62,613 nt of DNA, filler included, from Bonamia ostreae (GCA_040357525.1; 34 parts of 34 records of this genome joined end to end with filler, not necessarily neighbours in it); one strand, 5' to 3'; positions 45 through 61,715 are shown, counted from the first letter of the whole stretch. The notes: generated from the letters alone by a model not told the origin. Made by a program: numbers and translations.

Positions 45-1156
45 GGATCGCACTGCACAACTCTCAGCTTTAGCCCAAATGATGCTAGATCCATTTTATC
101 GCACATTAAAAGGATTTTTGATTTTAATCACAAAAGAATTTTTATCGTTTGGACATATGTTTGGCGTTAGAAACGGCAATGCGTCAAAGGAAAACGGTTT
201 TTAAACAATTTGTTCAAATTTGAAATGACTAAAAAATCGATTTTAAAAACGATTTTTAAATTTGACTTAAAAATAGCAAACGGAAGATCTCCCATTTTCT
301 TACAATTTCTTGACGCAACTTATCAACTTTGTAACCAGTATCAGTTTTGTTTTGAATTCAATTCGATTTTACTGGAAAAAATCGCAGAGGAGTCGTTTTA
401 TTGCAAATATGGAACTTTTCTTTATAACAACGAAAAAGAACGAAAAGAAAAGAAACTGCGCTATAAAACAGTTTCTCTATGGACGTACATTTTAAGAAAT
501 CCAAAAGATTACACAAATGTTGCATTCACTCCCTTGAAGGATGTAATATTGCCCCCGAAAACATTAAGACATATCGTCGTATGGCCGTTTTACTATAGAC
601 AACACATGTTTTTAAGTTGACTAAAACTGAAAAAATAATATTTTTCGCTTCAAAAATTAAAATAAATGTTCAAAGATAAAATTTTATTTTAAAAAATAAA
701 AATCGTCTCAAAGTTAAAAAAATATTTGCAAAAATAAAAATCGTCTCAAAAAATAATCGTCTCAAAGTTAAAAAAAGATTTGAAAAATCGACTAAAAAAT
801 AACAATTGCAATTTTAACATTACTTTTTAAAATAACAATTATTCAAAAAGTGATAGCGACTACAGAATTCCTTTATCTTTCGTAATGTCCTTAAAATACG
901 AAAGCGATTTTTTGGCTTTAAACAACAAAATCAAAATTTTGGAAAAAGAGGTCGACCTAATCAAATCCAAAAACTCGAATCTAAAAAAGCAAATGAAAGT
1001 TTTAGTTTCTCAATTAAGACGTCGTCAGCTAAACCTAATGAAGAAAATGCGCTGGAAGAAAATTTCAAAGAAATAACACAAATGCTTCATCAGAAGGATA
1101 TACCGAAACAAAATAGAAGCGAAAGCTTTCTTCGCATGAAAAATTTTTTGTTTTAA
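45..1156 (+). CDS. Myotubularin-related phosphoinositide phosphatase, 3' part (spliced)
   Basis: Exon from 45 reads (W)[39 protein letters not shown], then [14 protein letters not shown]....FEFN and [12 protein letters not shown], all typical MTMR motifs. C-terminal coiled coil. GT-AG introns include a probable 20-nt one at 999-1018. Confidence 0.9.
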
Positions 1157-1268
1157 ACAACTCGATTTTTCAGCTTTTGCATATTTAAATTTTCGATCTT
1201 AAAAATTGCAAAAATGGCAAATTTCCCCTCTAAAATAGCAATTTTCGCTTTTTAAAAAAATCTCAAAA

Positions 1269-1761
1269 ATGAAAAGCGAATCGATAAAACACGACTTGAA
1301 GGAAAACTACACCTTCAAATCCTCCAAAGGCACCGAAACAAAAAATCTCGAAGAAACAGATTACAAAAATTTGACCGAAAAGGAAAAAGCGGTTGAGAAC
1401 CATATGATCGGAATGGGTTTTCAAACTGACAATCTAGTCAAAGAAATTACAAACGAACCAGACGCCACCGCGAAGAAAACGTTCGAGTTGACATTGGACC
1501 AAATTAAAAACGGCAAACCAAGTTTGGAAGACGCCAAAGTGCTCGGAAAAGACGATAATTTTTATGACAAAATTGTTTTTTACGACAATATTTTTTACAA
1601 CAAAAGCAAGGTTTGAAGCTCAAGCATACACACACGGAAAAGAGTGTTCACGAGAAAATGAGGGAGGTTCATCGGGTCATTAAGCAAAGCAAGGATTTGA
1701 AGCTTAGACATGTTTTGCCTCCGTTGCACCATCCTCCGAGCATGGTTATTTTTAAAATCGC
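1269..1761 (+). CDS. Putative WH2/thymosin-like actin-binding repeat protein (3' partial)
   Basis: ORFs 1269-1616 and 1613-1761 join through a GTTTTTT...AAAAG intron. Repeated LDQIKNGKPSL, KIQGLKLKHT and VIKQSKDLKLRHV motifs resemble WH2. Confidence 0.45.
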
Positions 1762-1861
1762 NNNNNNNNNNNNNNNNNNNNNNNNNNNNNNNNNNNNNNN
1801 NNNNNTTAATTAATTAANNNNNNNNNNNNNNNNNNNNNNNNNNNNNNNNNNNNNNNNNNNN
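1762..1861. other. Artificial contig linker (44N-TTAATTAATTAA-44N); 33 such linkers occur about every 1.85 kb
   Basis: Identical 100-nt spacer carrying stops in all six frames. Flanking contigs decrease steadily in length. Confidence 0.99.
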
Positions 1862-1950
1862 ATTTTCCAAACCGATTTACGTTTTTTTTTGCAAAATTGC
1901 AAAATTACAAAATTTACCAAAAATCTGTTTTAAAATCTCAATAAAATTAG

Positions 1951-3591: not shown

Positions 3592-4295
3592 TGAAATTTT
3601 AAAGCAATTTTCAGATTTNNNNNNNNNNNNNNNNNNNNNNNNNNNNNNNNNNNNNNNNNNNNTTAATTAATTAANNNNNNNNNNNNNNNNNNNNNNNNNN
3701 NNNNNNNNNNNNNNNNNNGATTGATCGCTATTCGTTATCTTCATGCTTTTCGTCTCACATGTTTTTTCGTGGGTCTTTGTTTGCCCTACTTTCAATCTTA
3801 TATTCTTTATGGTATTCATATGATTGATTATGCTACAAATCATAGTAAAATATTATTTCGCTTGAAGTAGACATTTTTTGAAAAAGAATTACCATCTCTA
3901 TAGGCATATTTCACTGTCAAGACGAACAACAATATTCATATACATGTACATGTATAATACTTTGTGACATCAGCAAGGTGAAATAAACAGGTCAATGTTA
4001 AGGTAAAATAAACAGGTCAATGATGGTTTCTATGTAATAATTTGTTGTCCTCGATATTACTTATAAAACAGGAGAAAAAGAACGATACTGACGTTTCCCT
4101 TTCTAACTTTCAGGTGATCAAAACAGCACCGCACTCCATGCAAATAAAACAAAACATTCTGAGCTTTGTATCAGGATTTTGAACCTTATTGTATTATAGA
4201 GGTAACGCAGTTTGCAGGAGAACGGTTGATACAACTAAAGTTGAGAAAACGTGGACGACTTCAGCGTAACGATCGCTAAACTAGAGGGCCCATAG

Positions 4296-6355: not shown

Positions 6356-7330
6356 ATGGACCTGCAGTTGAAAATTTTTAATGAAATAAAGTCAAACGGT
6401 TTTGAAATATTAAAGAGACTTAAATCGACGGACCAAAATTCTTTTCTTTATAAAAGTCGATTTTCAAATAAAAACAATTTTAGAATCTTTGCGATTTAAT
6501 CGTTCAAAATTAATTTTAGAATTTAAATTTAACTAATTTGAAGTTGCGACACAAACTTTGCAATCTTTCAATAAATATAATAAATTTAATCAGCCAAAGA
6601 AACTAATACAAGCGAGATATTTATTGCAAGAGTCTATCATAATGTCGAAAGGCACTCTTCAATTGGATATTTATTCACGGAAAATATTTTGACAGAAAGA
6701 GATATTATAAAAACATGTGACAGTCCTTACATAGCTGAATTCAAAACATTTTTTCCAACCAATAACTTTTACTGTTTAGTTACTCGTTATTTTGATAATA
6801 TTGCGATAAAGTTTTTGAATTTGTAATTAAAGCGACTTTTTGAAGAATCACGTAATAAGTTCATCAGCAAAAAGTTTGAAGTTTTTATAAAAAGGAATTT
6901 TGATTGCAGAAATTGTAATGGCAATGAATAACGTACACAGAAACGGATATTTTATTAAAAATTTGTCAATTGAAAATGTTTTGATCCAGCAAAATGGGCA
7001 TATTTTGTTAACTTCCTTCATTTTTTCAGAAAGAAGAAACGATGTTGAAGAGATTCAATCGGGAATTTCATATCAAAACAAATTGGAAATTGGTTTTTTC
7101 GACGTACAAAATTTTTTAAGCAGGATTTATTGGAAAAAGTATTAAAAACTGAATTTTATAATGTTAAAAAAGCGCCAGAAATAATTGAACACAAACATTA
7201 TAACAAATCAGTTGATTATTGGTCGTTAGGAATGTTAATTTACAAAATTTATGAGAAAAAATATCCTTTTAATATTGAAGAAGGACATTCTATAGAAAAG
7301 TTTGGAGAAATAGAATTTTTTAAAATAAAA
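6356..7330 (+). CDS. AGC-like protein kinase, probable pseudokinase (3' partial, spliced)
   Basis: Motifs RDIIKTCDSPYI, IAEIVMAMNNVH, ENVLIQQNGHILLTSF and APEII..YNKSVDYWSLGMLIY..YPF. Microintrons at 6811-6832 (22 nt) and 6874-6894 (21 nt). Confidence 0.8.
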
Positions 7331-9285: not shown

Positions 9286-9600
9286 TGAAATATTTTTTTT
9301 CGTTTTAAAACATTTTTTTTATTTTTTAAAACATTTTTTTGGTTTTTAAAACATTTTTTTGATTTTTAAGACATTTTTTTCGTTTTAAAATATTTTTTTG
9401 GTTTTTCAAACATTTTTTTATTTTTGAAATATTTTTTTTCGTTTTAAAACATTTTTTTTATTTTTTAAAACATTTTTTTATTTTTAAAACATTTTTTTTG
9501 GTTTTTAAAATAGTTTTTTTAATTTTTAAAACATTTTTTTTATTTTCAAAACATTTTTTATGCGTTTTTAAACTATTTTTTTGATTTTTGAAATATTTTT
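9286..9600. repeat. AT-rich minisatellite, unit about 20-21 bp (AAAACATTTTTTT core)
   Basis: About 15 degenerate units are directly visible. Confidence 0.9.
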
Positions 9601-10700: not shown

Positions 10701-10802
10701 TTTCCTTCTTTTTATAAAGTTGTTTTAAGTTGTTGTTATTTGGTTGTTGGCATTTTTTAATTGTTGACAAAATTTTATTTGTTGACATTTTTGTTGTTGC
10801 CA

Positions 10803-11213: not shown

Positions 11214-12690
11214 TGTTTTGGAATTGTAAGGAAAAAGAAACGGTGTCCCAAAAAAGACTTCGTTGTTGTAATTTAAAATCTGCCCAAATTTCAACCTTTA
11301 AGAAAATTTGGCTTTAAAAAACCTGCAATCATTCTCGTTCCTGCAAAAGTCGCCCAAAACGTTATTTGGCGCACTAATTTCTTCAATCTCGTAAATGTTT
11401 AGACATTGCTTTAGTTTTTCCACGTTACATTTTTCCACTTTTCGCCTTAAAAAACTTAAATAATTTTTCTTTGGCTTTTCTTCATAATTATTTTTTTGTC
11501 CACTGTAGTTTTCGCTAAATGATTTTTTCCACGACTCTTTTTTCGAAGTTTCGCTCTTTTTGTCCAAAATTTCCGTTTTCGAAGTTTCGCTGTCGATAAC
11601 TTTTGTTGTTTGCTTTGAAAATGATTTGAGTGTGTCGCCGTTTGCTTTTTTGGAAAAAGTTTCATCGTCCTTTTCTTCAGTTTTATTGTCGTTGTCCTCA
11701 TTTCCGACATTGTCATTTTCTTCAATTTTAATTTCAGAATCGGTATTATCGGGATTTGGATTTTCGGTGTCCTCTTCGTTCAAATTTTGCATCAAAATTT
11801 TTCTGTCATTTCCGTTGTGCAATTTTTCTTCTTCAACGTAAACAACTGTGTTTTTGCTTCCCAACTTTTCCTCGAAACGTTCTTTGGCTAAAGTTTGCGG
11901 CGGATTCAGATTCTTCAAATTGGTAAAATCGTCTTTGATCAGTCGCTCGGAGCCGTCAAAATCCGGTGCGACGAGTTGTTCCAACAACGTTTGTTTGTTT
12001 TCGAAAACAAGCAGTTTCTTGCCGACCGCGTCGAAGAGCGGCTGCTTCGGAGACAAGACCGATTTTAACGTGGAAGAAGTCGAAAAGATGGCGGCAACCA
12101 AAACAGCCGACGTCGAAGAGCTGTTCCCGTTAAATCTGTGTCGCAGAGAAGTGCGTTTGGAGATTTGGTCGAGCAAGTCTGAAACTTTGTTCGACTTTTG
12201 CATTTCGACTTCGAACCGCACGAGCGCGAGCGAGTTCGAAACGAAGTAAATGCTGAAAGTCTGGTTGTTGGGCTGTGGCACGGGGAGCGAGAGGTACATG
12301 AAGGGATCGAATTTCTGCGAGCGGTAGCCACAGCCTTCGCTGCGGCAGATCAGCTCCGATCGCAGTTGACCGTGGAACAAGTCCGCGATGAAAGAATTGT
12401 TCTGGGAAATGTGCCGGTTCCAACTTTCCTTCGCGTCATCGACCGCAGTCGAAAAACGCTTTTTCTCTCGTTTAAGTTCTTCGTGCAACCCGTCCAACAG
12501 AAAGGCCGTGAATTCGTGCGAGTCGTGTTGGTTGCAGCCACTGAGGAAAGTTATTTTGAAAACAAAAATAGGTTTGTTTTTTCGTCTAACGCTCGTTTAA
12601 ACGAAGACGGATTGACCGAGCTGTAGTTGCCCGACCAAATTTTCTTCAGCAATTTGGCGAATTGGGAAGCGATCGTTGAATCTTTTGTAT
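11214..12690 (-). CDS. Ubiquitin-specific protease, USP4/11/15-like (internal part)
   Basis: Motifs NQHDSHEFTAFLLDGLHEEL, NNSFIADLFHGQLRSELIC, FDPFMYLSLPVP and FFGTPFL. 23-nt intron at 12541-12563. Confidence 0.9.
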
Positions 12691-26198: not shown

Positions 26199-26249
26199 TA
26201 AGAACATTTTGTTCGAACAAACAAAAAAAATTAAGTGGGCACAAAATTT

Positions 26250-29775: not shown

Positions 29776-31192
29776 ACATCATCTTTGAGCAAATGCAATT
29801 TGTTCTGAGCGGATTTGAACGCGTTTTCAGATTTTTCTAAAAATCTCAAAATGAAAACCCAATTTGGCTACGAGAACTTTAGATTGCTTTAAACAGATAT
29901 CAAGATCATTTTTGATATCTTCATCGCTTTTATCCAAAATTTCAATTATGCTCAATTCAAGAATTTTCTTTTCTTTGAGCAAAGCAGAAATTCGAAAATT
30001 CAATCTTTCTATTTCGTTTTGAGTTTCTTTGACCGATTCAACATTTTCTTCTAATCGCCTAAAATTTTTATAAAAATTAAAACTCCAAATTATTTTCTTC
30101 AACATTGATGTCCTTTGAGAGCTTTGAAGACGTTTCATTGAGAATAACAATTTCTTTCGTCAAGTTTTCCAAATCGTTTTTGTACTTTATTTTTTAACAA
30201 AAAACTTTTTTGTAACTTTGAAGATTGTTTTTGGCCAATAAAAGGTCTTTTTCTAGAAAGGCCGTTTTTGTTTTTAAATTCTTGCGCACTGTTTTTATTT
30301 TTTGTAGCGCTTTTGTATATTTGGTCGAAGAGAAAATGTCGTCGAATTTTAATTTTAATGATTTGGAATCGCCCATTGGCCACAACGATTCCTTTAAATA
30401 AAATTTGAAAATTTTACAAAATTAATAAACTTCTTGATGGCAAAAGATGACATTGCTTAAAATAGCTTTAGATACTTTCATAATTCGAGCTGCGATGTTA
30501 TCTATCTCCAAACATTTGTGAGTTGCGGTGACCCTTTCTCCTTCTTCGTTTATGCTTCTAATCGTCGCGTCGATTTGTTGATATCTTCTCGTTTTTGCTT
30601 TTTGCGAAACTTGAAAAGATCGGATTATTGTAACAGGTTTTCCTTTTCGAGAAATAAATTAGCAAAAAATAAGAAATCAACAAATATTTGCAAAACTTTT
30701 TACAAAACATTTAAATTTGCAACAAAACGTTAAAAATCAACAAATATTTACAAAAACTTGTACAAAACATTTAAATTTACTAAACATTTAAAACATTAAA
30801 AATCACTTAAAAACAAAAACCATCAAAAGTTTTCAATGTTAGTTTAATTTGGGCTCTTACAAGACATTCTTTTGATAACTTTTTACGTTTATGTAAATAA
30901 CTAATGGATCGTGTACGAAAGATTTCCCTTTTAGAGAATCTGGAGGATTTATCCCGGTACATGCGAAACGGAGAGCTTCAATGATCGTCTAAATTTTATT
31001 TTTATTATCAATTTTAAAAATTCGGTCAAAATATTATTTTTTTGTCAAATTTTACGAATAAAATAAAACAGTTTTTCCAGACCCGTTATTACCGGTAAAA
31101 AGTGTTAATGGGCGTTGAAATTCTATTGTAACCGGTGTGTTCGGGTCGTACGACCTTATTCCTGAAATCGAAAGTTTTTTTATTGTCGTCAT
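29776..31192 (-). CDS. RAD50: DNA repair protein RAD50, N-terminal part (at least 6 introns)
   Basis: Motifs [64 protein letters not shown] and [14 protein letters not shown]. Introns include 21 nt (30185-30205), 23 nt (30879-30901) and 25 nt (30059-30083). Confidence 0.96.
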
Positions 31193-34205: not shown

Positions 34206-34975
34206 ATGGTGTTCTGTAGACCAAGTTTCACAAAAGAGCAAAAAGAACAGATGCTCGTCTCGAAACATATTGACCTGAAAGCGGCCGCTGAATATAGACA
34301 AATAGACAACTCGGTCAAAGTTTTGTTGCTCGGGCCCGGCGAATCTGGGAAGTCGACGATTTTGAAGCAGATTCACTCGATTTTTAATAACGGATTTGAC
34401 GACGATGAGCGGAGAGGGTTTGTGCCTATCGTAAGGGAGAACCTTTTTACTGCGATCAAAGTTTGCGAATTTGACGATTTTAAAAAATTTTGTGATTTTA
34501 ATCGATAATTAATTGGTCTCAAAAATATTTAGACTTTACTTGAGATGACTGATGTCTTGGCAGAACGAGGTTTAAAGGGCACAAAAATAAGCAAAAAAAG
34601 TGAAGCGATAAAAAACGAAATTTTGAATTTTTGCAGTGTTGAAGAAGTGACGGATTGGAAAAAAGTTAATTTTGGCGTGAAATGACAATTTTACAATTAT
34701 TTATCAAATTTCTAAAAACGACTTAATTATAAAAGTTTTGTAATAAAACATCAAAATTGTGGACAGAAGAGAAAGGGCTAAAAGTTGTGTATGAGAATCG
34801 CTCGATGTACCATTTGACAGGATCTGGTGATTACTTTATAAGAAAAGCGGTATCGATAGGTAGTTCAGAATACGTGCCAACAATTTTGGATGTAATGAGT
34901 GCGAGAATTAAGACTACTGGAATATCAGAAAAATTTTTCAAAATTGGTTCGAATGGTTTCCGTGTTTTTGATGTC
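34206..34975 (+). CDS. Heterotrimeric G-protein alpha subunit (5' part)
   Basis: Motifs KVLLLGPGESGKSTILKQ, YVPTILDVMSARIKTTGI and FRVFDV. Two GTT...AG introns. Confidence 0.95.
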
Positions 34976-35387
34976 GTTTTTTTTATAATTTTTTAAAATT
35001 GGTAAAAATTGCAATTTTGTCGTTTTTAATAATTTTTTAAAATTGGTAAAAATTGCAATTTTGTCGTTTTTAATAATTGTTNNNNNNNNNNNNNNNNNNN
35101 NNNNNNNNNNNNNNNNNNNNNNNNNTTAATTAATTAANNNNNNNNNNNNNNNNNNNNNNNNNNNNNNNNNNNNNNNNNNNNTTTTATTAATTTTTCATTT
35201 TTACAATTTTTTTATAAATTGCCATTTTTCCATTTTATTAATTTTTCATTTTTACAATTTTTTAGAAATTGCCATTTTTGCATTTTATTAATTTTTAATT
35301 TTTACAATTTTTTAAAAATTGCCATTTTTGCAATTTAGCATTAAAAAATCGATTCGCAAATTTTAATAAATTGGAAATTTTGTTCAG

Positions 35388-36872
35388 AAAATATCCCGAT
35401 CGGCTTCGTGGACGCTGGAATCAATATGCCACGTAAGCAAACAGAAGATGTCGGGGCGGTTAGAGTTCTTATGCAAAATTTTCGCTCATTACTCAAACCT
35501 ATCGCACAAAGAAGATCAACGCCATTTCATCAATGTTTTTAAGTGATCTCGCCGTTTCATTTATAAAGGGCATTTGCTACGTTTTTTCGTACATCGAAGA
35601 AGAGAAGAATTTGCGTGGCGCGATTCGCTCTGTAATGAGCACTTGCTTGAATATAATGCGCAAAATGCCGGCCACCGAGGACGCCGTGGTGACAGGGATA
35701 GACGGGATCGCTCATATCGTCCAATGCTTCGATATACGACACAAACCTCTCAGTTTTATATTTTTTGAGACCACCGAATAACGGTAACAACAATAGAGCC
35801 GATTCTGAATTCCGTTGTCAGCGACATTTTGAACGACATTTGGAGCGGTTTCCTCGGAAACTTTATACTAAATCATCACGTTTTTGTTGTAACGACATTT
35901 CCAGAAAAACGACAGAATAATGGAGAGCTGCATTTCCAAATTGTGCAAGTACTTTGTAAGAAACTTTCCCGTCTGTTTCAGGGCTTCCGTCGACCGCATT
36001 TTGATCGCTTTCAAAATGGTCATGGACAAAACTTTTATTCCCTCGTTTTTAGAGTTGCGCAAAATTTTGTATTTAACAATTAAATCGCGCCAAAGCAGCA
36101 ACAATGACTTGTACATTGTAACTTGAAACAATTTAAAGAAGCTTCATTTACCTTTCGTCGATTTTCGTGGAAAAGTATGAAGACGACGAGGAACTAATCG
36201 TCAAAATATTGAACATGTTCTCCGAGTACTTTTTCGACACCGCTTCGAAAAGTTTTTAGAGCGAAGTCAAGATTTGTTCAAAAAGGATTCGTCGGCTTAT
36301 TTTTATTTGTTGGAAGACTATTTTCGAATGTGCTTCAAGTTCCTCAAAAATTCGGCCGTTGTTTTGTACCGTTCGAAGCACTTCGAAAACAGTTTTTTTC
36401 GTAAAAGCAGTTTTCGTGACCGCGATGGACGAATTGTCGATTGCGGATTATGAATCGTTTGAACTCGTCTGTGAGTTCATAAAAAGAGTTCTGATAGAAG
36501 CAAAGTCTTATGAGAAGAATAGCAGTCGAATGGAAGGGGCCGTGGCGATGAAGATTCTGCAGAAGCACTCTGCCCAACTGGTAAGCAAAGTTCTGATGTG
36601 CGTTTATTCGCAGCCGAAAAATTTCATTCCCGATTTGGCAGAAATTCTGACGGTCATTGAAAGTATGGACAAAGCAGGTACCAAAGAAGTTATGAGATTG
36701 ACCGTCAATTCCAAGTTTTAAAAGCAACATGAGAAGACTGGGGAAGATTAGAAGTGAAATAAGAGAAAATTTTTTGAACGATTTTTCGAGTGCCTTTTCG
36801 ATCGAAGACAAAACTGACGTTTTGATTACTTTTCATGGAATGTGTCAATTGCATTATATTAAAAACAATTGA
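35388..36872 (+). CDS. TNPO3: Transportin-3/Mtr10-like importin-beta family protein, C-terminal part
   Basis: Spliced translation SFIYLSSIFVEKY...LEDYFRMCFKFLKNSAVVLYRS..IFVTAM...VCEFIK tracks TNPO3 as recalled. Introns of 34, 25, 28, 20, 19 and 19/22 nt, plus one of 17/44 nt. Confidence 0.75.
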
Positions 36873-37298: not shown

Positions 37299-38421
37299 TT
37301 ATTTTTGAATAATCAATCCATTCAGAAAATCAAATCGGTTACCATCCGGCATCAAAGTACTAAATTCCCCCAAATCGTCAACAACTTTCAAATAGCCAAA
37401 TTCGTCGATCCCTTTAATCACAAAATCTCGATTTCGAACATTTACTTTTTGATCGCTGTGCATCCAAAACTGATAATATTTTTTCAAAAAATAGCCGCAA
37501 AAGCCATTTTCTTCAAATTTTTCAAAATTTGAAGAAAAAATTGTTAAAAAATCAAATAAAATGTCTTCCGCCAAATGTTTTGGTAATTTTGCACTTGTTG
37601 ATATTTCCGATAAACATGTTGTTGGCGACTTGTTATATACATTTAACCCAATTCCTATAGTAATTTAATGTTCATATTCAATAATTTCCAAAAATGAATT
37701 TGATGTACATATTCAAAATTAGAAAAAAAACCGCAAACATATTCGTTATGTTTTCCAGGAACTCTGTTACAAAGAACTCCCCCGATTTTAATTTTTTTGT
37801 CAAAATAAATATCGTTTGGCCATTTTATATAAATATTCTTTTTTTGTAAAATTTTAAAACTTTAAAATTGTCCGTTTTTTTAATTGCGTTAAGCAACATT
37901 AATGTCACAAAGTATTGAAGGAAATGAATATTATTTTTGTTTATAATTATTTTGAAAGAAAACATCAAACAACCTTCGGGGGATTCCCAAACATTATTTT
38001 TACGCCCTTTTTTTAAAATTTACAAAACGGAGAAAAATTGTAAAATTTACAAAATTTTTTTAAAATTTTTTTAAAGGAGATAAATTATTTAGTCAAACCA
38101 ACTCCGTTTATTTGTTTATGAGCAATAAAAACGCTGCCATCCGGCAACCAGCTCAATTGACTAAATTTTACAGAAAATTAAAAACTTTGCCAATAAAGTT
38201 TGCGTTGAAGTTATTAAATCCGAATGCAAAAAATGGCGGAAAAGTTTATTTTTCGAAAATTTTGTAAAAAAATAGTCAAAATCAAAATTTCGTTTTTGGA
38301 TGATTTGCAGAAAATCGGCCATTTTGAAAAAAGGATTTATTTTAATATTTTCAAATTTTAATTTGTTCTCTTTTATATTTTTGCATTCACCAGAAAACAG
38401 TGCATTTATTTCAAACGACAT
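37299..38421 (-). CDS. Biotin--protein ligase (holocarboxylase synthetase)
   Basis: Motifs TSTQTLL, QINGVGRKNNVWESPEGCLMFSF, IKWPNDIY, KIGGVL, GIGLNV and LMPDGNRFDFLNGLI. Introns at 37838-37860 (23 nt) and 38161-38185 (25 nt). Confidence 0.95.
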
Positions 38422-48250: not shown

Positions 48251-49786
48251 ATGGTTAATTTGAGCTTTTTCTTTGTATCTCTAGTTCTTTGTTTTCAAAA
48301 CATAAATGGCTTCAATTGCAGAGTCCCAGAAGATTATGTCAAAGACGACTTTTATGGTTGCAAAGTTTATAAAAACATTTGGACGCTGTTTCATACAATT
48401 TTTGTGGGCACATGTTTAGTAAAAAAAGATACTCCTATCACGAAAATATTGTACTACAACACTCAGACTAAAAGCTATGTAGGTCAGGTGACTTGCGATA
48501 GTTTGTATGACAGAAGTAAATTGAGAAGGCGAGCATGTTTATCTAAATAAATAATAGTTGTTGCATTACAGAAGTGTACAGACACGCAAATTGCCTTAAA
48601 ACCAGACGCATCTTGTTCAAGATCTGGTGCCTACGTATCTCAGAATTGCAGAATATCACTTCCACCAGGAATGCGATTCAAATTCGGAAATACTTTAACG
48701 ACTACTGTCACTTTGGATATCTCAAACTCAAGGCAAATGTGCCAACATGTCTATAAATCTTGTAAATACTCGAATCAATTGTTACCTGCCTCAAGTTGTA
48801 CAACTGACAATCCTTCACTGTTCTATGATCAATGCTCATTCGGAATTAAATCCCCAAATGCGTTTAATGTCGATGGAAAATTTGAATTACAATCAACTTG
48901 GATTTGTGGTCAAAATGGAATTATCAAAACTTCGTACAAATATTCAGCCGGATGTCCTGATGGATTTTTGCAAACCAAACACCTCAACGCTAATAAGGGA
49001 TGTGAAAGATTGATAGCAAATTTTTTATTTGGGAAATGCGATCTTTCGCGAGATAACGCTAAATTCCAAAATCCCACTCTTCCGAAATTGTTACAAGACA
49101 CTTTCCCTTATGTTTGTAACAACGGACAGGATAATAGTAACAAGTTGGTAGTTGTCATAGGATGTTTGCGTTACCAAACTACTTTTGCAAACGCTCTAAC
49201 TCCAGACAAAACTTGTGTTGCTTCAAAAAGTCATTTTTTTCGCAAATGTGATTTTCATGTAGCAGAAAATTATAGATGGGTCAACCCCCAGAACAAATTG
49301 CTTTCTCTCATTACTTCGGATTGCGATGATGATGGAAAACGAAGTCCTGAAAAAGTACTTTTGGTAAAGGGATGTCCAAAACCCACATCAGTGACTCCAA
49401 CACGCTATTCGCTCGATCACAAATGCACAACTACAAATTCTCTGTACTTTGAAAGTTGCCTGGCAATCGCTATGCCTAGATGGCTTTTCACGGTCAATTC
49501 TTCTTTTCAAGATGAAGTCTGCATTGGCTGTGACAATGGAAAATCAAATGTAACTAGACTCGACTTAATTCCTTGTAATCTATTTTTAAATATTAGTCTG
49601 TCCGCTTCCAAGGTTTGCTTCAAATCCCGGAGCTGTGCTACCAAAAGAAGTTTGCATAAGATATAAGAATGGATTCGTTAAATCCTGCCGCGTGGACCAT
49701 GGTATGTTTTTCAGAATGTATGAACACGGTTCAAGAATTGATTCGAAATTGTTACCATGTTCTCCTACCTTTGATCCAACTTCGTT
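48251..49786 (+). CDS. Secreted cysteine-rich repeat protein (protist type, 3' partial)
   Basis: Signal peptide MVNLSFFFVSLVLCFQNING. Repeats of about 60 aa with 4 Cys. Introns 48537-48557 (21 nt) and 49575-49596 (22 nt) join three ORFs. Confidence 0.8.
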
Positions 49787-50601: not shown

Positions 50602-51579
50602 ATGCAAAAATTTGCAAATTTTTCAAATTTCCGATATCGCTTAATATTCGCAATACTTTCAGGCAAAAAAATAGCATTTGCACTGAACAAAAATTCACGC
50701 CTAAATTTGCACCAAAACACTTTTCTCGATTTGTGCAAAAAAATTTGTAACGACTTTTATACAGACATCGATAAAAATTATCTTGTGATCAACCCCGGTA
50801 CCATCGTCAATGGCACCGATATCGAATTTGATTGCGGCTATGAAAAACCAATTGGATATTTCATTGAAGGAATTCTGGTTTTAGCTTTGTTCGGCAAAAA
50901 CGATCTGAAAATAACTTTTGCTGGAAAAACGAGTTCTTTCGGAAATATTTCGGTCGATTTTGCGAAAAATCTGGTGGAGACACTGAAACATTTCGGTGCC
51001 AATAATTGTGTGCTCGAAATTAAGAAAAGAGGTTCGTGCAAAGAAATGCCCGCCGAAATCAGTTTAATAGTTTCTGTGGTCAAATCTTTGAAACAGGTCA
51101 ATTTGGTCGATTCTGGCCATGTTGAGAAAATAAGAGGAATTGCTTTTTGTGAAATGGTGCCTCCCGCGATTGCCAATAGAATGTCAATTACGGCCAAAAA
51201 GATTTTGAAGGATTTTTTGCCCGACGTTTGGATTTTTACAGAAGCGTTTAATCGGAAAATTTTGATGTTTTAAAAATGGAAAATATTTTGAAAATGAAAG
51301 AAATAAAGAAGATAAAAATTTTGGGATATGTTTGACAGCCGAGTCCTCGACAGGGAGTCTGTTAAGCGGCGAAGAATGTTTGCACGACAGTTTATCGCCG
51401 GAAGAGGTGGCTGAAAGGGCAACCAAATTTGTGTTAAAAGAGATTTCTCATGTTTGAAGCAAATTAACAAAAAAGGGAGGGTTTTTTGACGAGAAAACTC
51501 AGCCTTTCGTCATTTTGTTAATGGTTTTGTGTAGAGAGGACGTAAGTAATGTCAAATTTGGGAAATTATCTAATAAAGC
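50602..51579 (+). CDS. RCL1: RNA 3'-terminal phosphate cyclase-like protein (3' partial)
   Basis: Motifs NFRYRLIFAILSGKKI, PIGYFIEGILVLALFGK, EKIRGIAF, FLPDVWIFT, SPEEVA and GGFFDEKTQ. 24-nt intron at 51452-51475. Confidence 0.92.
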
Positions 51580-55506: not shown

Positions 55507-56928
55507 AACAAACACGGACAGAAAACACATTTCAACTATTGTAAAAGTAGTCAAAAACGTCAAAATCAGTAGAGATTCCACAAAATGGCACACCGAATTT
55601 TCAGTAGAAAAGTCAAAACTGCTCCAAGAATATGAGACCGGTTGCACTCTTTGCGTGGCTCCGAGAAACGATTTTTGGTTGGTCGACAAAATCTGCAGAA
55701 GATTTGGTTGGAACAAAAATCTTGTTTTTTCGATCAAGTCGAATGGCGGTCTTTTGGATTCCCGTTTTTGCACTAAAATTCTCAACCTTTTTAACGAAAA
55801 ATCTGAAAAATTTTTAAAATCTGTAAAATTTAGCCAAAATTTAACAAAAGATTTGAAAGCTTTCGAAAACCCGATGACGATAAAACGTGCTCTTTTGTGG
55901 TATTTTGATTTGACCCATTTCCCAAAAATGTCGCTGATAAAATCTTTGTCAAATTTTGTCGAAGACAAAGCCGAAAAGTCAATTATCGAAAAATTGGCCA
56001 AATTGGACAAAAACGTTTTTTTGCAAAATTTAGAATGAAAAATCGCGCGAAAACTTGGTCAAAGACTTTTCAGTTTTGGGATTATTTAACCAATTCAAAT
56101 CGCTGAAACTGAAATTCGAGGATTTTATATCAATTTTCCCGCGACTGCTGCCACGCGAGTACACTGTTTCTAGCGCTTATAACGTTTCTAGACCAATCTT
56201 AAAATTATTTAGCCAGAGAAAAAAATCGTTTCGGTTACATATTCTCTTGTCGGAGAAGATGAGCCGTTCGGGGTCTGCACGAAATATCTCAAAAACTTGA
56301 GAGCGGAAAAAGACAGCGCCGCCGTTTTTTTGAAACAGTCGTCTTTGAGGCTCCCCCGAAAATTGGATGGCGCCGCTATAATAATGGTTGGCGCTGGATC
56401 GGGATTAGCTCCTTTCAAAGGATTTGTCGAGGTTTTGTTTGATCAGTTTAGCACGGCGCGGCAGAGAAAGAAAGAGCAGGAATCGGAGATTGGTGTTTGT
56501 TTTTCGGGTGCAAAAGCAAGAAGAACGATTTTATTTATGAGAGCGAATTGTTAACGGCAGAAAAATCTGGTTTTTTTCTGGCAGTTACAAAATAAGGCGT
56601 TTTGAAGCATTTGTTTGTGGCGTTTTCTAGAGACCAAATAAATAAAATTTATGTGCAAGATAGAATTAGAGAGAATTCGGGGATCGTTTGGAAGTTGCTG
56701 TGTAAAAGACGATCATTTATTTTTATTTGCGGGTTCCTGATTTTAAATTTTCGAATTTTTTTAATTTAAAAAATCGATAATTCAATAGATCGACAGGAAT
56801 GGGATTAAGCGTAAAAACTGAAATAAAAAGAATAGTTTTAGACAACTTGAAAAGTAGAAAAAAGGCAGATCAATTCATGGAAAAATTGAGAGACGAGAAA
56901 AGAATTGTAAGTGAACTTTGGGGATAAT
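55507..56928 (+). CDS. Diflavin (NADPH-cytochrome P450 reductase-like) oxidoreductase, FAD/NADPH domains
   Basis: Motifs PRLLPREYTVSSA, GVCTKYL, IIMVGAGSGLAPFKGF, LFFGCK, VAFSRDQ..KIYVQD, FICGS and C-terminal ELWG*. Introns at 56015-56033 (19 nt) and 56432-56451 (20 nt), among others. Confidence 0.93.
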
Positions 56929-59900
56929 TAAATTATAAAATTGCTTTTGTAGAATTTTTTAATTGAAAATGAGTTTTGTCTTAATGATTAAAATTGGCAA
57001 AAATTATGAAAAAAGTTGGCAAAAATTTGCAAAATTAATAAATCTTGTCTAAAAATGGTTAAAATTGGCAAAAATTATGAAAAAAGTTGGCAAAATTAAT
57101 AAATCTTGTCTAAAAATGGTTAANNNNNNNNNNNNNNNNNNNNNNNNNNNNNNNNNNNNNNNNNNNNTTAATTAATTAANNNNNNNNNNNNNNNNNNNNN
57201 NNNNNNNNNNNNNNNNNNNNNNNTAAAGAAGTTGAAGAAAAATTGGATAACTTCAAGGATAGGTTTCGGCTCAACAAGAACAGGTTTCTTCCGACAATGA
57301 ACTACACTGAGGAAATGTATCCAAGAACATAAATCGACTACATGACATTGTACAATCTGCTTCAGATGATGAATGGAGCTAATGATTATTTGAAGTATAT
57401 TGTACAAAACCAACGTCAAACATAGCCGTTATCATTGCATTGCTTTTCACAGATAACGAAAGCGTTGACCTATGGAATTTTATTGTTTAATATATGACAA
57501 TTGTACTTATTGCTTTTCATGTCATACAAATACTTTAGTATATAAACTGCCTCTCGGTTTTATTTTAAACAGCTCTTGATAATGTTAGAACAAAATATGG
57601 TCATTTAGCATAAATGATGATGATAGTTAACAATACAGTTAACAATATAGCATTAAATTAAAAACCATCATATGGAATATATAACTTGCATACTAGATAT
57701 TACATGAACTATAGAAAAAGGGCAACCACTCCGAGCTCTAATCATGACCCCCCTCCCCACCCCACCCCACCCCACCAAAAAAAACACAACCCAGAAAAAC
57801 GAATATATGACAAGTAATCAGAATGTTGGCTGTCGAAATGAAGACTTTCTGATAAAAATGATAACAATGATCTACAGAAATGAACCCCACTGTACTATTT
57901 GACGTAACAAAGTTCAACTCGATTGTCTTATTGGATGAAAACTTTCATGATATTTTGTCGTTATTTACCGCCATTATCAAGTATGAAAGCTGTATTTGTG
58001 TAACATCGCTTTTCAGATATTTTGTTAACATCATAAAGGTATCCAAAGTTTGAACTATACTATGCGTTACGGTAATTTCCATACAATACTGTGACCTTGA
58101 AATCGCCCCTAATGTGCATTGACATATGTGATGTGTGTAAACAGTTCCTTAGGGCATGCTAGCGGAAAATGAGGATCATTTGATTATGTGTTGTGTAAAA
58201 CGGGGGTTGGACATATGTGTCTTGCAAATCTTGCTGGGGTGTGCTCTAGTGCTCTTAAAATCAAGCATTGTTTGCGAGATTTGCAATCAAATTTTACGAT
58301 GATCGTCATTTCTAGTAAAATATCAACGATGACGGAATGAAAGAAAATATATCAATAACATAATTACTAACTCAATATCCGATGCAGGTTAAATGCTTAG
58401 CTGAATTCCCACACACGAATGCAAACTGTAACAATTGGCGGTTCAATCCAAAATTTCCTGATCTTATCCAATGTTTACGAGTGCCAATCGAGTATCTACA
58501 TGTAGTACCATTTTATTTACACTGTCTTCGTGATGAAAATTAAAGTTCCTGAGCTTTTATTTCTATAACGTACCATACAAACAGATCATCTAGGTCACAA
58601 GTATCTAGCAAGTAAAAATATACATGTATTACAGAACAGCCCCTTAGAACGACAATGTTAACTCTGCACAATTCACAACCTGACTACATATGTACACATG
58701 TAAATCAAATCAATTCGAACAGAACAAAAACAGTCCTCACTCATGTCACTCTCGATTATATGTCTGCAATCATGTTTTGTTTATGCCTTTTATATTTCTT
58801 ATCAGTATCATACTTTTATAATGACAAACTCCATCAAATGAGTCTCTGATTCTTGTTTGAACATTTCATGCAAAAACTAGGGGAGTTTTGCTATGTAAAA
58901 CAAAAATTGGATGTGCAATAACATTCAACTAGTTATGTTCCCCAAACAAAGTTNNNNNNNNNNNNNNNNNNNNNNNNNNNNNNNNNNNNNNNNNNNNTTA
59001 ATTAATTAANNNNNNNNNNNNNNNNNNNNNNNNNNNNNNNNNNNNNNNNNNNNTCTCATGTAATAAAGATACAAAAGTTTTACCACCAAGAATTAACAAA
59101 TGATGATAAATACAAAATGATCAAAAGGTCTGAACAGCGCATTTATTACCCTTTTTATACAGTACTTACATTTTGATAAAAGTCGGGGATAGGGAGTGGG
59201 TTGATGTTCGGTTCCATTTACAATAGCAAAACTTACTGCTATAGTTTCTTTATTGATATTTTTATTTATCAAAATTTAAGATTATATTTCCTTATGTCTA
59301 TCCAGTGTGTAATTGATGAAATGCAAACATCCAGTAGATAAAAGACTTCTGGAACATTGTTATTGACGACAGCGACAAAGATCGCCATCTTTTTTTTTTT
59401 TTTACTAGTACAGGTATATATAACAGTATCGTTAACAGATCCGGGCCACAGCATACAATGGCAATATGTGTTTTGTTTTTCATTTTAATGCGACATATCA
59501 GTCTTGATTTAACCATAATGATCTTTTGACGTGATTGCAAAGTAAAGCTATCGACAATATATATTTTTCCGGTTTGGCCAATTCACGATGGCTAATAATT
59601 TGATATCAATAGAAAATAAATCTAAATTGACTTTTACATTGTATAACTATAACAAAATTAAGACAGTTATATATTAACACCGACAAATATGTCAAGAAAA
59701 TTATTCAAACAATAAACTTACCCCAAGATCAATACCGATAATGGATGGAAACACACGAGTCTTATCGCTGTTAGGTACGGCAGTATGGATGACAACATGG
59801 GATATAAATACATACATATCCAAATCTCAAAGGTACTATATTGAAGATGCTACCGTGAGAGCTAGCGCAGCTACACATATGTATGCGCGGATCCAGAATT

Positions 59901-60169
59901 TATTCCCAGGGAAGTCAGTTTCATCCCATACATTTCTCTGAGAGTTTGGATCGAGACTAGGGATTAATCTTAGGCATTTTACATATACAGCTTGACCTGC
60001 TTAAAGATAGGCAAATATACTTATTTTCTATAAAACTGAGGGGGTAGTGGGTTCGAAACCTCAATCCCTCTCCTCCTTCATTTGCGCTCCCGATATAACC
60101 TCTGCCTATTGGATTAAGATATTAAATTTAAAAGAAAACGGGAAATATATGTAGTGTATTAAAAATCGA

Positions 60170-60305
60170 GGCCCGCCCGTGCCACGGCTGCGTCATACCA
60201 AAGACGTAAACATACATGTAGGTAGTGTTTCCTCCCTCGCCAAACACGTGGCATTTAGAAGTGAGAATCAATCATGGGTCTTTCGGACAAGACCTTCAAA
60301 ACGTG
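60170..60305 (+). mobile_element. Bivalve SINE fragment (host)
   Basis: GTCATACCAAAGAC...GGCATTTAGAAGTGAGAATCA...GGGTCTTTCGGA..AGACCTT matches a common oyster SINE body as recalled. Confidence 0.6.
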
Positions 60306-60914
60306 CTTTGCATTACTCGATATGCCAAGGATTGAACCTAGTAACTAGATTTGAGTGGTCGTTACATTATGTATTTCTGATGAAAAAATGCAATAAACAG
60401 ACAGTCAATGCTTTAGTTGTATTATGAACTCAAATCATAGACCATGGCGTCACACATTTTCTGACCCTGCCTATCAATTAATATTACTTAAATTTGGTGT
60501 CATGTTGCATTGTATCTTGTTGGCAATCACCACAATAAAATTGAGATGATCTACGTAAGTTTCTAATCTTAGATCAATGAGACGTGGTTTTGTGAGTCTC
60601 CGCCATTTTTATGAAGAACTTCAGGAAATGTGGTGACCAATGAGATTTGCAGCTTCAGACGAATTTTTTTTCGCGCGATTTAATTTTAATATTTATTCAA
60701 GAGCTCGTAGGCCGACTCGCTATAACACTAGTGTAAATGACCAATGGAAGCTTTAATATGTGTATGATACCGTAACAAGTTATNNNNNNNNNNNNNNNNN
60801 NNNNNNNNNNNNNNNNNNNNNNNNNNNTTAATTAATTAANNNNNNNNNNNNNNNNNNNNNNNNNNNNNNNNNNNNNNNNNNNNTTAATGCCCTTTAATTA
60901 AATTTATATAATAC

Positions 60915-61715
60915 CTTAAACACAGCCTTTAGCGAACCATTTAGTCCTATAAAATCGAAATTAGTGTTATCTAATCCAATATCATAGGAATCTGTTATAA
61001 ATGTGTCAATTTTTCGATTATAAATTGAAAATCTTAAGCGAGTTTTGTTAGTTGACTAAAATTATTAATGTAAACTTTAAATAGAATAGCTTTAACACTT
61101 AAGAACACATGATTAGTTTCAAAATTATTTTTATTAAATTTATCACCGCCTTTTTTTTCTAAAACATCAATTATTGATTTATTTTCTTTTCTTTGCTTTA
61201 TGTTTTTAAAAGTCAAACTTTAATTATTTTAGTCCATATAGATTTTTCTTCGATATTTTCAACGTATAAATTTTTGTGCTAAAAATCATTTATAAAACTA
61301 ATTTGAATAAATTTATAATATTGTTTCCTACTTTGACTAGTTTTCCAGAAGGATCTCTTGGTATTGAAAATCCTTCGTTCGTTTTTCCAATATCTTCAAT
61401 TAAAAGAATCATTGCATCGATATATCTTTCCACATAATTTTCATGAATTTTTGGATTGTTAACTTGTTTCCAAATATCCAACAATATGCTTGCTTTTTCT
61501 TTGAATTCATGATATTTCATTACATTATTTTTCTACAATAGTAATTATTGAAAAACAGCTAGACATGATTGTTGAATTCTATTTATTTCTTTCAAAACTA
61601 AATATAGTTCATTCTTTAGGTCTACGATTTAAAATTAATACAGTAAACTTTCCCTTTTTATCAAATTTAATCTATAATAATTTAAATGAAACTCTGACTT
61701 TCTGTTTTCAATCAT
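60915..61715 (-). CDS. DOCK-family GEF N-terminal-like protein (5' part, 5 microintrons)
   Basis: Spliced translation includes NELYLVLKE, IPRDPSGKLV..NIINLFKLH and LRFSIYNRKIDTFITDSY...LKAVFK. Introns of 27, 24, 20 (61279-61298), 23 (61196-61218) and 20 (61056-61075) nt. Confidence 0.7.

What the first reader, a model, noticed from the sequence alone, without database searches (positions are those of the whole stretch)
999..61298. Pervasive 19-25-nt spliceosomal microintrons in the protist genes
Seen: conserved proteins only read through if very short GT..AG segments are removed. 19 nt: 36392-36410, 56015-56033. 20 nt: 999-1018, 36252-36271, 56432-56451, 61056-61075, 61279-61298. 21 nt: 6874-6894, 30185-30205, 48537-48557. 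22-25 nt: 6811-6832, 49575-49596, 12541-12563, 30879-30901, 37838-37860, 61196-61218, 51452-51475, 30059-30083, 35880-35904, 38161-38185. In the TNPO3-like gene the 20- and 19-nt choices restore residue spacing to human TNPO3 as I recall it. Established: introns this short occur in few lineages (heterotrich ciliates, Paramecium, chlorarachniophyte nucleomorphs, mikrocytids, microsporidia). Inference: this genome has an intron-rich, microintron-adapted spliceosome that standard gene finders would miss.
Basis: partly seen in the sequence, partly recalled or inferred. Interest (0 to 1): 0.85.

Follow-up and report, generated by a model that had tools for sequence, protein, structure and literature searches.

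The report
Short introns in Bonamia ostreae genes
The genes of the oyster parasite Bonamia ostreae are broken by many real but very short introns, some only 19-25 bases long and others up to about 180, that start with an unusual GTTTT signal, and public gene models partly miss them.

Summary
The window is 34 short contigs (about 1.75 kb each) joined by linkers. Two exact protein hits name the organism as Bonamia ostreae (Haplosporidia, Rhizaria).

All 20 claimed segments are GT..AG on their coding strand, and 18 of 20 start GTTT.
- 9 of 20 have independent support. One is spliced out in an RNA-like run. Seven restore profile continuity, one of them only partly. One is identical to a public gene model and lies inside an unbroken NAD_binding_1 match.
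- The other 11 rest on open-frame logic only. None is refuted.

The same genes also hold at least 15 longer introns (27-178 nt). Spliced contigs directly show introns of 34, 44 and 94 nt. So this is a broad short-intron distribution with a floor near 19 nt. It is not a narrow microintron system like that of mikrocytids.

The donor signal is unusual. T is at +3 in 23 of 23 supported introns, at +4 in 21 and at +5 in 17. The acceptor is A/T-AG behind an A-rich tail.

Of three claimed introns that lie inside public models, one is modelled correctly.

The genome paper calls these introns "canonical". Their length and signal are not described in the text I could see. An earlier scan note on other DNA (Naegleria, 39-46 nt introns) was judged ordinary.

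Verdict: real, and a new member of a known kind.

The parts
36252..36271 (+). 20-nt intron, TNPO3/IPO13-like gene (claimed)
   Evidence: In run X4 one contig ends at 36251. A 42-letter arm runs on with 8 loose letters that match 36276-36283, which fits a 36251>36272 joint. An unspliced arm is also present (record 19). DNA runs X1 and X2 carry the segment.
35535..35568 (+). 34-nt intron (not claimed)
   Evidence: X4 joint 35534>35569, GT..AG, side 147. Absent from X1 and X2.
35753..35796 (+). 44-nt intron (not claimed)
   Evidence: X4 joint 35752>35797, GT..AG. A second contig has 8 loose letters equal to the end of the upstream exon. My own 17-nt prediction here was wrong.
36045..36138 (+). 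94-nt intron (not claimed)
   Evidence: X4 joint 36044>36139, GT..AG, side 48. Record positions 48 and 49 are adjacent.
35259..35387 (+). 3' part of an intron of at least 129 nt that holds a 50-nt tandem repeat
   Evidence: X4 record 16 joins 35388 to letters that, in DNA run X2, lie just before 35259. In X2 the donor reads G + TTTTTAG.
35880..35904 (+). 25-nt intron (claimed), boundaries not fixed
   Evidence: The frames on both sides are set by RNA joints and need a shift of 1 mod 3. The spliced model is open for 409 codons. Donors giving 19 or 16 nt keep the same frame. No X4 cover at this site.
36392..36410 (+). 19-nt intron (claimed), boundaries not fixed
   Evidence: X4 depth is 185.9 at 36401 inside the segment, against 1028.7 at 36320 in the exon. 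This is only a hint. No spliced contig is listed. A 16-nt variant keeps the same frame.
36715..36736 (+). 22-nt intron (not claimed)
   Evidence: Predicted. Public-collection model P0004 splices it. The 33%-identical relative P0005 aligns across the junction without a gap.
56015..56033 (+). 19-nt intron, CPR-like flavoprotein gene (claimed)
   Evidence: FAD_binding_1: the upstream exon ends at profile position 141 and the downstream exon starts at 142. Public model P0002 instead skips to 56213 and loses this exon.
56184..56212 (+). 29-nt intron (not claimed)
   Evidence: It closes exon 56034-56183, which matches FAD_binding_1 148-194. The model is open for 423 codons.
56432..56451 (+). 20-nt intron (claimed)
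   Evidence: Identical to the intron in public model P0002. NAD_binding_1 matches residues 227-332 as one stretch across it.
56570..56596 (+). 27-nt intron (not claimed)
   Evidence: Public model P0002. It lies inside the unbroken NAD_binding_1 match.
56733..56788 (+). 56-nt intron (not claimed), donor GTTCC
   Evidence: Public model P0002. It lies inside the unbroken NAD_binding_1 match.
51267..51300 (+). 34-nt intron, Rcl1 gene (not claimed)
   Evidence: Public model P0001. RTC_insert matches 2-102 as one stretch across it.
51452..51475 (+). 24-nt intron, Rcl1 gene (claimed)
   Evidence: TIGR03400: the upstream exon ends at position 279 and the downstream exon starts at 280. Public model P0001 reads into the intron and stops.
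12541..12563 (-). 23-nt intron, ubiquitin hydrolase gene (claimed)
   Evidence: UCH profile: 83, then the split codon at 84, then 85.
37838..37860 (-). 23-nt intron, biotin-protein ligase gene (claimed)
   Evidence: TIGR00121: the upstream exon ends near position 89 and the downstream exon starts near 88.
38161..38185 (-). 25-nt intron (claimed), frame logic only
   Evidence: The spliced model is open for 314 codons. The flanking exons gave no profile hit.
38007..38098 (-). 92-nt intron (not claimed)
   Evidence: Homology-guided junction. Two candidates share one donor.
37655..37731 (-). 77-nt intron with a 35-nt tandem repeat (not claimed)
   Evidence: birA coordinates 90-125 and 122-221 on the two sides. 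Junction chosen. Repeat found.
6811..6832 (+). 22-nt intron, protein kinase gene (claimed)
   Evidence: Supported jointly with 6874-6894. The Pkinase profile gap is 16 positions for 15 residues of the 41-nt exon plus split codons.
6874..6894 (+). 21-nt intron (claimed)
   Evidence: As for 6811-6832. If retained it gives an in-frame stop.
30879..30901 (-). 23-nt intron, Rad50 gene (claimed), donor GTTAT
   Evidence: rad50 TIGR00606: the upstream exon covers 43-69 and a later exon starts at 85. The 23-aa exon in between gave no hit. The model is open for 332 codons.
30989..31069 (-). 81-nt intron (not claimed)
   Evidence: It joins the Walker-A exon (rad50 2-43) to the next exon (43-69).
30643..30820 (-). 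178-nt intron with a 30-nt tandem repeat (not claimed)
   Evidence: The only frame-compatible GT..AG candidate of 200 nt or less. Repeat found.
30392..30430 (-). 39-nt intron (not claimed)
   Evidence: rad50 85-159 and 159-213 on the two sides. Junction chosen.
30185..30205 (-). 21-nt intron (claimed), frame logic only
   Evidence: Coiled-coil part with no profile hit. Open model. Recovered by the GT..AG-only path search.
30059..30083 (-). 25-nt intron (claimed), frame logic only
   Evidence: As for 30185-30205.
197..276 (+). 80-nt intron, myotubularin gene (not claimed)
   Evidence: Myotub-related profile 244-292 and 297-352 on the two sides. Unique candidate.
999..1018 (+). 20-nt intron (claimed), frame logic only
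   Evidence: Coiled-coil tail that no profile could test. The model still has 6 stops elsewhere.
48537..48557 (+). 21-nt intron, Cys-rich protein gene (claimed), frame logic only
   Evidence: The spliced model is open for 497 codons. The only database hit is the window's own unspliced ORF.
49575..49596 (+). 22-nt intron (claimed), donor GTAAT, frame logic only
   Evidence: As for 48537-48557.
61056..61075 (-). 20-nt intron (claimed), frame logic only
   Evidence: The spliced model is open for 191 codons. No family hit.
61196..61218 (-). 23-nt intron (claimed), frame logic only
   Evidence: As for 61056-61075.
61279..61298 (-). 20-nt intron (claimed), frame logic only
   Evidence: As for 61056-61075.
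34461..34532 (+).
   Evidence: G-alpha profile on exon 1. One of 6 frame-compatible candidates, and the only donor position that starts GTTT (shared by 2 of the 6).

Best explanation
These are ordinary-mechanism (U2-type, GT-AG) spliceosomal introns in nuclear genes of Bonamia ostreae.

Shown:
- The genes are densely interrupted, at about 3-5 introns per kb of coding sequence in the genes studied.
- Intron lengths run from a floor of about 19 nt up to about 180 nt.
- Of the 23 independently supported introns, 10 are 19-24 nt. Of all 36 placed, 21 are 25 nt or less.
- The longer introns often contain AT-rich tandem repeats.
- The donor is a departed signal, GTTT(T)(T/A), in place of the usual GTAAGT type. 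The 3' end is A-rich and ends in A/T-AG.
- Retention of any one intron puts stops in frame.

Inferred:
- Recognition of such short introns relies on this extended U-rich donor.
- A branch A lies about 8-10 nt before the acceptor.
- The snRNAs that read the donor (the U1 5' end and U6) have co-evolved with it or have been lost.
For: Organism: exact hits to NCBI proteins named Bonamia ostreae.

RNA and DNA:
- Run X4 carries three GT..AG joints (34, 44 and 94 nt).
- X4 also has the spliced arm of the 20-nt intron and a joint over an intron of at least 129 nt.
- DNA-type runs X1 and X2, from two studies, carry all segments. Their only indels lie in an intronic repeat.

Homology: profile positions run on across 8 claimed junctions once the segments are removed.

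Open frames: the spliced models are single open frames of 170-497 codons in about 30% GC DNA. Leaving in any one intron gives 1-24 stops.

Splice signal:
- T is at +3 in 23 of 23 supported introns, at +4 in 21 and at +5 in 17.
- 9 of the 10 chosen without regard to motif start GTTT (P = 1.3e-6).

Public models contain introns of 20, 22, 27, 34 and 56 nt.
Against: - 11 of the 20 claimed segments have no support beyond frame logic.
- Frame logic misled me once: I predicted 17 nt and RNA showed 44 nt.
- Window-wide bridging tests gave GT..AG rank 44-192 of 256 boundary pairs. GTTTT..[AT]AG scored 9.0%, against 0-12.8% for decoys.
- X4 is only guessed to be RNA. It also holds unspliced contigs across 36252-36271 and 36392-36410.
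- No spliced contig was listed for the 19-nt segment 36392-36410.
- AAG at the acceptor is barely above composition: 14 of 23 against 40% (P = 0.04).
The unflagged G-alpha gene shows only introns of about 59 nt or more.
Confidence: 0.9

Rival explanations
1. A constrained microintron system. In this view nearly all introns of this genome fall in one narrow class (19-25 nt), as in mikrocytids (16-17 nt), heterotrich ciliates (15-16 nt) or chlorarachniophyte nucleomorphs (18-21 nt).
For: 20 candidate segments of 19-25 nt lie in 10 of the 34 contigs. No placed intron is shorter than 19 nt.
Against: RNA-like contigs show introns of 34, 44, 94 and at least 129 nt in one gene. 13 of the 23 independently supported introns are 27-178 nt. 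The G-alpha gene has none of 25 nt or less.
Confidence: 0.04
2. Some of the 11 unverified segments are wrongly delimited. The true intron would use another donor or acceptor, or would be part of a longer intron, even though an intron is present there.
For: Same-frame alternatives exist: 16 or 19 nt at 35880-35904 and 16 nt at 36392-36410. My 17-nt prediction proved to be 44 nt. Public model P0002 used a 198-nt alternative at 56015.
Against: 10 of the 11 start GTTT, like the supported set. In 10 of the 11 the chosen boundaries give fully open models.
Confidence: 0.4
3. The frame breaks are sequencing or assembly errors (homopolymer indels) in a poor draft assembly, not introns.
For: The assembly is highly fragmented (contigs of about 1.75 kb), and the segments are rich in T and A runs.
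Against: Contigs of two DNA-type runs from different studies agree with the window across contig 20. The only exceptions are two indels in an intronic repeat. An error would not need the removal of 19-25 nt bounded by GT..AG to restore profile continuity.
Confidence: 0.01
4. The segments are removed at the DNA level (like ciliate eliminated sequences), and X4 is a DNA library of the processed form.
For: The kind of X4 is only a guess, and it holds both forms.
Against: The boundaries are GT..AG on the coding strand, not TA..TA. The organism is a rhizarian, not a ciliate. The published annotation was trained on transcript reads (passages of PMC11069148), and public-collection models that match the window splice the same kind of segment.
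Confidence: 0.01

Closest known systems
Mikrocytid introns (Mikrocytos mackini, Paramikrocytos canceri; PMC10245619, abstract and passages seen)
   Same: They belong to the same class of parasites (Ascetosporea). Their spliceosomal introns are very short and have conserved sequence, and splicing is partial.
   Different: Mikrocytids have 224 introns, all of 16 or 17 nt, and a much reduced spliceosome. Here lengths are 19-178 nt, the density is far higher, and no intron is under 19 nt. Their intron sequence logo appears only in a figure that I could not see, so whether the donor is shared is unknown.
Entamoeba transformed donor GUUUGU with a co-evolved U1 snRNA (bioRxiv 10.1101/2022.06.08.495308, passages seen)
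   Same: U at intron positions +3 and +4, where almost all eukaryotes have purines. The extended donor is strict.
   Different: Entamoeba keeps G at +5. Here +5 is T in 17 of 23 and G in 3 of 23, a third departure from GUAAGU. Entamoeba is intron-poor. No U1 could be looked for here.
Chlorarachniophyte nucleomorph (18-21 nt), heterotrich ciliates (15-16 nt) and Paramecium (about 25 nt); lengths as cited in PMC10245619 and in the abstract of PMC5014332 (listing)
   Same: GT-AG introns near the lower size limit of splicing, in AT-rich DNA.
   Different: Those systems have narrow length classes. Here there is a long tail to about 180 nt.
Published B. ostreae genome annotation (PMC11069148, passages seen; models P0001 and P0002, with P0004 from an unnamed source)
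   Same: The same genome. The paper reports a mean of 2 introns per mRNA, and the models already contain 20- and 22-nt introns.
   Different: The text calls the introns 'canonical' and, in the passages I saw, gives neither lengths nor a donor signal. In 2 of the 3 models compared here, a claimed intron is missed or replaced.

Membership tests
U2-type GT-AG spliceosomal introns | GT at the 5' end and AG at the 3' end on the coding strand | tested here: met
   20 of 20 claimed and 23 of 23 supported introns.
U2-type GT-AG spliceosomal introns | The segment is absent from transcripts but present in genomic DNA | tested here: met
   Shown for introns of contig 20 only. X4 gives three listed joints, plus the 20-nt intron and the one of at least 129 nt inferred from loose ends. 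X1 and X2 are unspliced. X4's RNA status is a guess.
U2-type GT-AG spliceosomal introns | Removal restores the reading frame and collinearity with homologues | tested here: met
   Profile continuity at 8 claimed junctions. Open models.
U2-type GT-AG spliceosomal introns | Canonical donor consensus GTRAGT | tested here: not met
   +3 is T in 23 of 23, +4 is T in 21 of 23 and +5 is T in 17 of 23.
U2-type GT-AG spliceosomal introns | Branch-point A and pyrimidine tract before the acceptor | tested here: inconclusive
   There is no pyrimidine tract. Positions -4 to -10 are A-rich (7-15 of 23 A per position, mostly 11 or more). No fixed motif could be drawn from 23 sequences.
U2-type GT-AG spliceosomal introns | snRNAs and spliceosome proteins are present | not testable with these tools
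   No whole genome is held. No Rfam family matched in the window.
Narrow-class microintron systems (mikrocytid, heterotrich or nucleomorph type) | Nearly all introns fall within a span of 2-4 nt | tested here: not met
   Supported lengths are 19-178 nt, and 13 of 23 are above 25 nt.
Entamoeba-type transformed donor | U at +3 and +4, G at +5, and a U1 5' end changed to match | tested here: inconclusive
   +3 and +4 are met. +5 is mostly T, so that part is not met. U1 is not testable.

The most novel reading that the evidence does not exclude
Bonamia ostreae splices with a transformed code. The parts are a GUUUU(U/A) donor that departs from GUAAGU at three positions, no pyrimidine tract, an A-rich 3' tail ending in A/U-AG, and a minimum length near 19 nt. 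A code like this requires a U1 snRNA with a rewritten 5' end, or splicing without U1. This code may also be the ancestral state from which the 16-17-nt introns of the related mikrocytids were squeezed.
Probability: 0.35. Interest if true: 0.7.

Novelty: new member of a known kind. Interest (0 to 1): 0.48.

Why it matters
- It adds Haplosporidia to the few lineages with introns near the lower size limit of splicing. Here the tiny introns coexist with longer ones, so one spliceosome must handle 19 nt and 180 nt.
- The donor departs from the near-universal purines at +3 and +4 and from G at +5. Only Entamoeba is on record with a comparable change, and there U1 co-evolved. That prediction can be tested directly in this genome.
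- It bears on how the extreme mikrocytid introns arose within the same parasite class.
- There is a practical side. Public gene models of this notifiable oyster parasite are truncated or lose conserved exons where short introns are missed. This can inflate inferred gene loss and mislead marker or target choice.

Tried and rejected
- Boundary-dinucleotide 'bridging' scans and motif-against-decoy bridging rates. They did not discriminate. Exons are often shorter than 30 codons, and GC-rich coding DNA is open in several frames.
- A GT..AG-only path search with a codon score trained on 18 ORFs. It recovered 5 of 20 claimed introns and scored antisense strands nearly as well. I dropped it as a catalogue tool.
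- The idea that the U-rich 5' end pairs with the A-rich 3' end. 14 of 23 short introns fold to 0 kcal/mol, and the mean z against shuffles is 0.05. Rejected.
- Rfam scan of the window: 0 matches, so no snRNA to inspect.
- TNPO3 spacing. The exon 36274-36390 found no solved chain. P0004 matched transportin-3 only at E = 1.2. Pfam gave TNPO3/IPO13 pieces below cut-off. No spacing test was possible.
- No profile hits for the exons beside 38161-38185, 30185-30205, 30059-30083 and the three contig-34 segments.
- Sequencing runs: no RNA holder is listed on record. Nothing from X8 was laid. X4 had no cover at 35890-35948 or beyond 36440.
- The homology search for the Cys-rich gene returned only the window's own unspliced ORF.
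- A metagenome scan for the locus of relative P0005 confirmed no locus.
- Earlier-findings look-ups: no notes on this genome. One unrelated Naegleria note turned up.
- Literature. Searches 'Bonamia ostreae + introns + genome', 'Haplosporidia + intron + actin' and 'Bonamia + short introns' found no description of intron length or donor signal in B. ostreae. The transcriptome paper PMC9329632 has 0 occurrences of 'intron'. Supplements of PMC11069148 may hold intron statistics, and I could not see them.
Full report
WHAT THE WINDOW IS

The 62,613 bases are not one locus. They are 34 contigs of 1,730-1,761 nt, ordered by falling length and joined by a 100-nt linker (44 N, a 12-letter all-frame stop string, 44 N). 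GC is about 0.30.

The open frames carry eukaryotic families: TAFII55, condensin Cnd2, RTC/Rcl1, UCH, FAD_binding_1, importin repeats, myotubularin, G-alpha, TsaD, RRM, WD40 and EF-hand. Two searches returned 100%-identical proteins that NCBI names as Bonamia ostreae. This is a haplosporidian (Ascetosporea, Rhizaria) parasite of flat oysters.

The genome paper reports a 12.24-Mb assembly in 9,705 scaffolds with N50 1,417 bp, 33.3% GC and a mean of 2 introns per mRNA. It annotated with funannotate trained on published transcript reads (PMC11069148, passages seen).

THE OBSERVATION

18 of 20 begin GTTT.

RNA AND DNA EVIDENCE

I chose contig 20, the TNPO3/IPO13-like gene, which has three claimed introns, and wrote down my predictions first.

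Contigs of two DNA-type runs from different studies (X1, X2) cover the contig collinearly. Their only indels are at 35307 and 35347, inside an intronic tandem repeat. The frame breaks are therefore not read errors.

Run X4 is guessed to be RNA. It shows the following:
- Three GT..AG joints that skip 35535-35568 (34 nt), 35753-35796 (44 nt) and 36045-36138 (94 nt).
- A contig that joins 35388 to letters which in DNA lie before 35259. This is an intron of at least 129 nt whose donor in X2 reads G+TTTTTAG.
- At the claimed 20-nt intron, a contig that ends exactly at 36251. A short arm carries on with letters matching 36276-36283, which is the pattern expected for a spliced bubble arm. An unspliced arm is also present.

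For the claimed 19-nt segment 36392-36410, X4 depth is 185.9 inside against 1,028.7 in the neighbouring exon. No spliced contig was listed, so this is only a hint. The claimed 25-nt segment had no X4 cover.

My own 17-nt prediction at 35753 was wrong, and the 34-nt intron had been missed by both readers because it contains no stop in one frame. Frame logic alone is fallible here.

HOMOLOGY

I scanned exons as separate proteins and compared profile coordinates across each junction.
- UCH: 83, split codon at 84, then 85, across 12541-12563.
- Rcl1 (TIGR03400): 279 then 280, across 51452-51475.
- FAD_binding_1: 141 then 142, across 56015-56033.
- birA (TIGR00121): about 89 then 88, across 37838-37860.
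- Pkinase: a gap of 16 positions for the 15 residues supplied by the 41-nt exon between 6811-6832 and 6874-6894.
- rad50 (TIGR00606): 43-69 before 30879-30901 and 85 onward two exons later. This is partial support.

Together with the public-model case below, that gives 9 of 20 claimed introns with independent support. The other 11 lie in poorly conserved parts, and the exons gave no hits.

After splicing, every model but one is a single open frame:
- TNPO3-like: 409 codons, ending in a stop.
- CPR-like: 423 codons, ending in a stop.
- Rcl1: 320 codons.
- Biotin ligase: 314 codons.
- Rad50: 332 codons.
- Cys-rich protein: 497 codons.
- The contig-34 gene: 191 codons.
- Kinase: 170 codons.

Leaving in any single intron gives 1-24 stops. 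The myotubularin model keeps 6 stops from a stretch I did not model.

PUBLIC MODELS

- P0002 (CPR-like) splices 56432-56451 exactly as claimed, and NAD_binding_1 runs unbroken across it and across two further introns of 27 and 56 nt. At 56015, however, it jumps 198 nt and drops the exon that matches FAD_binding_1 148-194.
- P0001 (Rcl1) has a 34-nt intron but reads into 51452-51475 and stops, losing profile positions 280-315.
- P0004 (unnamed source) splices a 22-nt intron at 36715-36736. A 33%-identical relative aligns across that junction without a gap.

So 20- and 22-nt introns are already in public models, but only 1 of the 3 claimed introns inside these models is modelled correctly.

LENGTH DISTRIBUTION

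Homology-guided junction searches placed further introns of 80 nt (myotubularin), 92 and 77 nt (biotin ligase), 81, 178 and 39 nt (Rad50) and 29 nt (CPR-like).
- Of the 23 independently supported introns, 10 are 19-24 nt and 13 are 27-178 nt.
- Of all 36 placed, 21 are 25 nt or less.
- None is under 19 nt.

In the unflagged G-alpha gene the candidates are 72 nt, 59-98 nt and one that runs off the contig. A 610-codon coiled-coil frame and a 172-codon EF-hand frame have no interruption.

Three of the long introns contain tandem repeats of 30-50 nt. A fourth intron, which begins at the end of contig 19 and runs off it, holds a 44-nt repeat.

SPLICE SIGNALS

In the 23 supported introns, T is at +3 in 23, at +4 in 21 and at +5 in 17. 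Position +6 is T or A in 21.

In the 10 chosen by RNA, public model or unique candidate, 9 do (P = 1.3e-6).

The acceptor has A (14) or T (8) at -3 and C once. AAG is only slightly above its 40% share of NAG (P = 0.04). Positions -4 to -10 are A-rich and there is no pyrimidine tract.

All 7 introns whose length is a multiple of three carry an in-frame stop. Given the donor sequence, the AT-richness and the way the introns were found, I draw nothing from that.

NEGATIVE RESULTS

- Window-wide bridging statistics did not single out GT..AG or GTTTT..AG.
- A simple path-search gene finder performed poorly.
- The short introns are not structured.
- No snRNA lies in the window.
- The TNPO3-spacing argument could not be tested.

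COMPARISON AND NOVELTY

Mikrocytids, in the same class, have 224 introns that are all 16-17 nt, and a reduced spliceosome (PMC10245619, abstract and passages). The B. ostreae paper contrasts them with 'canonical introns' in B. ostreae. In the passages I saw it gives no lengths or signals. The transcriptome paper never mentions introns. Supplements were closed.

[quoted passage not shown] Here +5 is also mostly U.

MECHANISM

Shown:
- The segments are present in DNA and absent from spliced contigs.
- They have GT..AG ends on the coding strand.
- Removing them restores frame and homology.

Inferred:
- Normal two-step splicing by a U2-type spliceosome that tolerates 19 nt.
- Definition of the intron by the extended U-rich donor and a branch A about 8-10 nt before the acceptor.
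- A U1 and U6 interface adapted to GUUUU.
- Growth of the longer introns by tandem duplication.

VERDICT

The introns are real. The reading 'pervasive 19-25 nt' is too narrow. The most interesting point is the donor signal together with the 19-nt floor, in a relative of the mikrocytids.

Noticed in passing
whole window; linkers at 1762-1861, 3619-3718 and so on: The window is a chain of 34 contigs in order of falling length, joined by N44 + a 12-letter all-frame stop string + N44. Neighbouring 'genes' across a linker are therefore not neighbours in the genome.
   Followed up: yes
30686-30789, 35182-35337, 37662-37729, 34979-35078: Three of the longer introns (178, at least 129 and 77 nt), and a fourth intron of the G-alpha gene that runs off contig 19, contain AT-rich tandem repeats of 30-50 nt. 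Long introns may be short ones that grew by tandem duplication.
   Followed up: partly
9288-9600, 10739-11040, 12751-12894, 33336-33514, 56989-57119: Many contigs end in AT-rich minisatellites. This probably explains why the assembly breaks into pieces of about 1.7 kb.
   Followed up: no
51452-51475 and 56015-56212: Two public gene models are faulty. The Rcl1 model P0001 stops inside an intron and lacks profile positions 280-315. The CPR-like model P0002 skips the exon 56034-56183, which carries part of the FAD-binding domain.
   Followed up: yes
35465, 35819, 36284, 36320, 36401 and others in contig 20: There are single-base differences between the window and runs X1, X2 and X4. Some are shared by X2 and X4 but not X1, which suggests several strains or alleles of the parasite in public data.
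   Followed up: no
36413-36869: A 147-aa protein from an unnamed source (P0005) is 33% identical to the C-terminal part of the TNPO3-like protein. It starts close to the same exon boundary, so it may be a partial model from a related organism. No locus was found in metagenome contigs.
   Followed up: partly
25949-27695 (contig 15): This contig has the highest GC (0.44). It has long overlapping open frames on both strands (283 aa on +, 210 aa on -). The + frame, the only one scanned, has no Pfam family. It may not be a protein gene of the same kind.
   Followed up: no
42495-44327 (-) and 13988-14506 (-): A 610-codon coiled-coil frame and a 172-codon EF-hand (centrin-like) frame are uninterrupted. 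Intron density is therefore very uneven between genes.
   Followed up: no
48224-48536: By eye, the exon upstream of the claimed 21-nt intron starts with a Met followed by a hydrophobic stretch. The spliced Cys-rich protein may be secreted. The only database entry starts at an internal Met.
   Followed up: no
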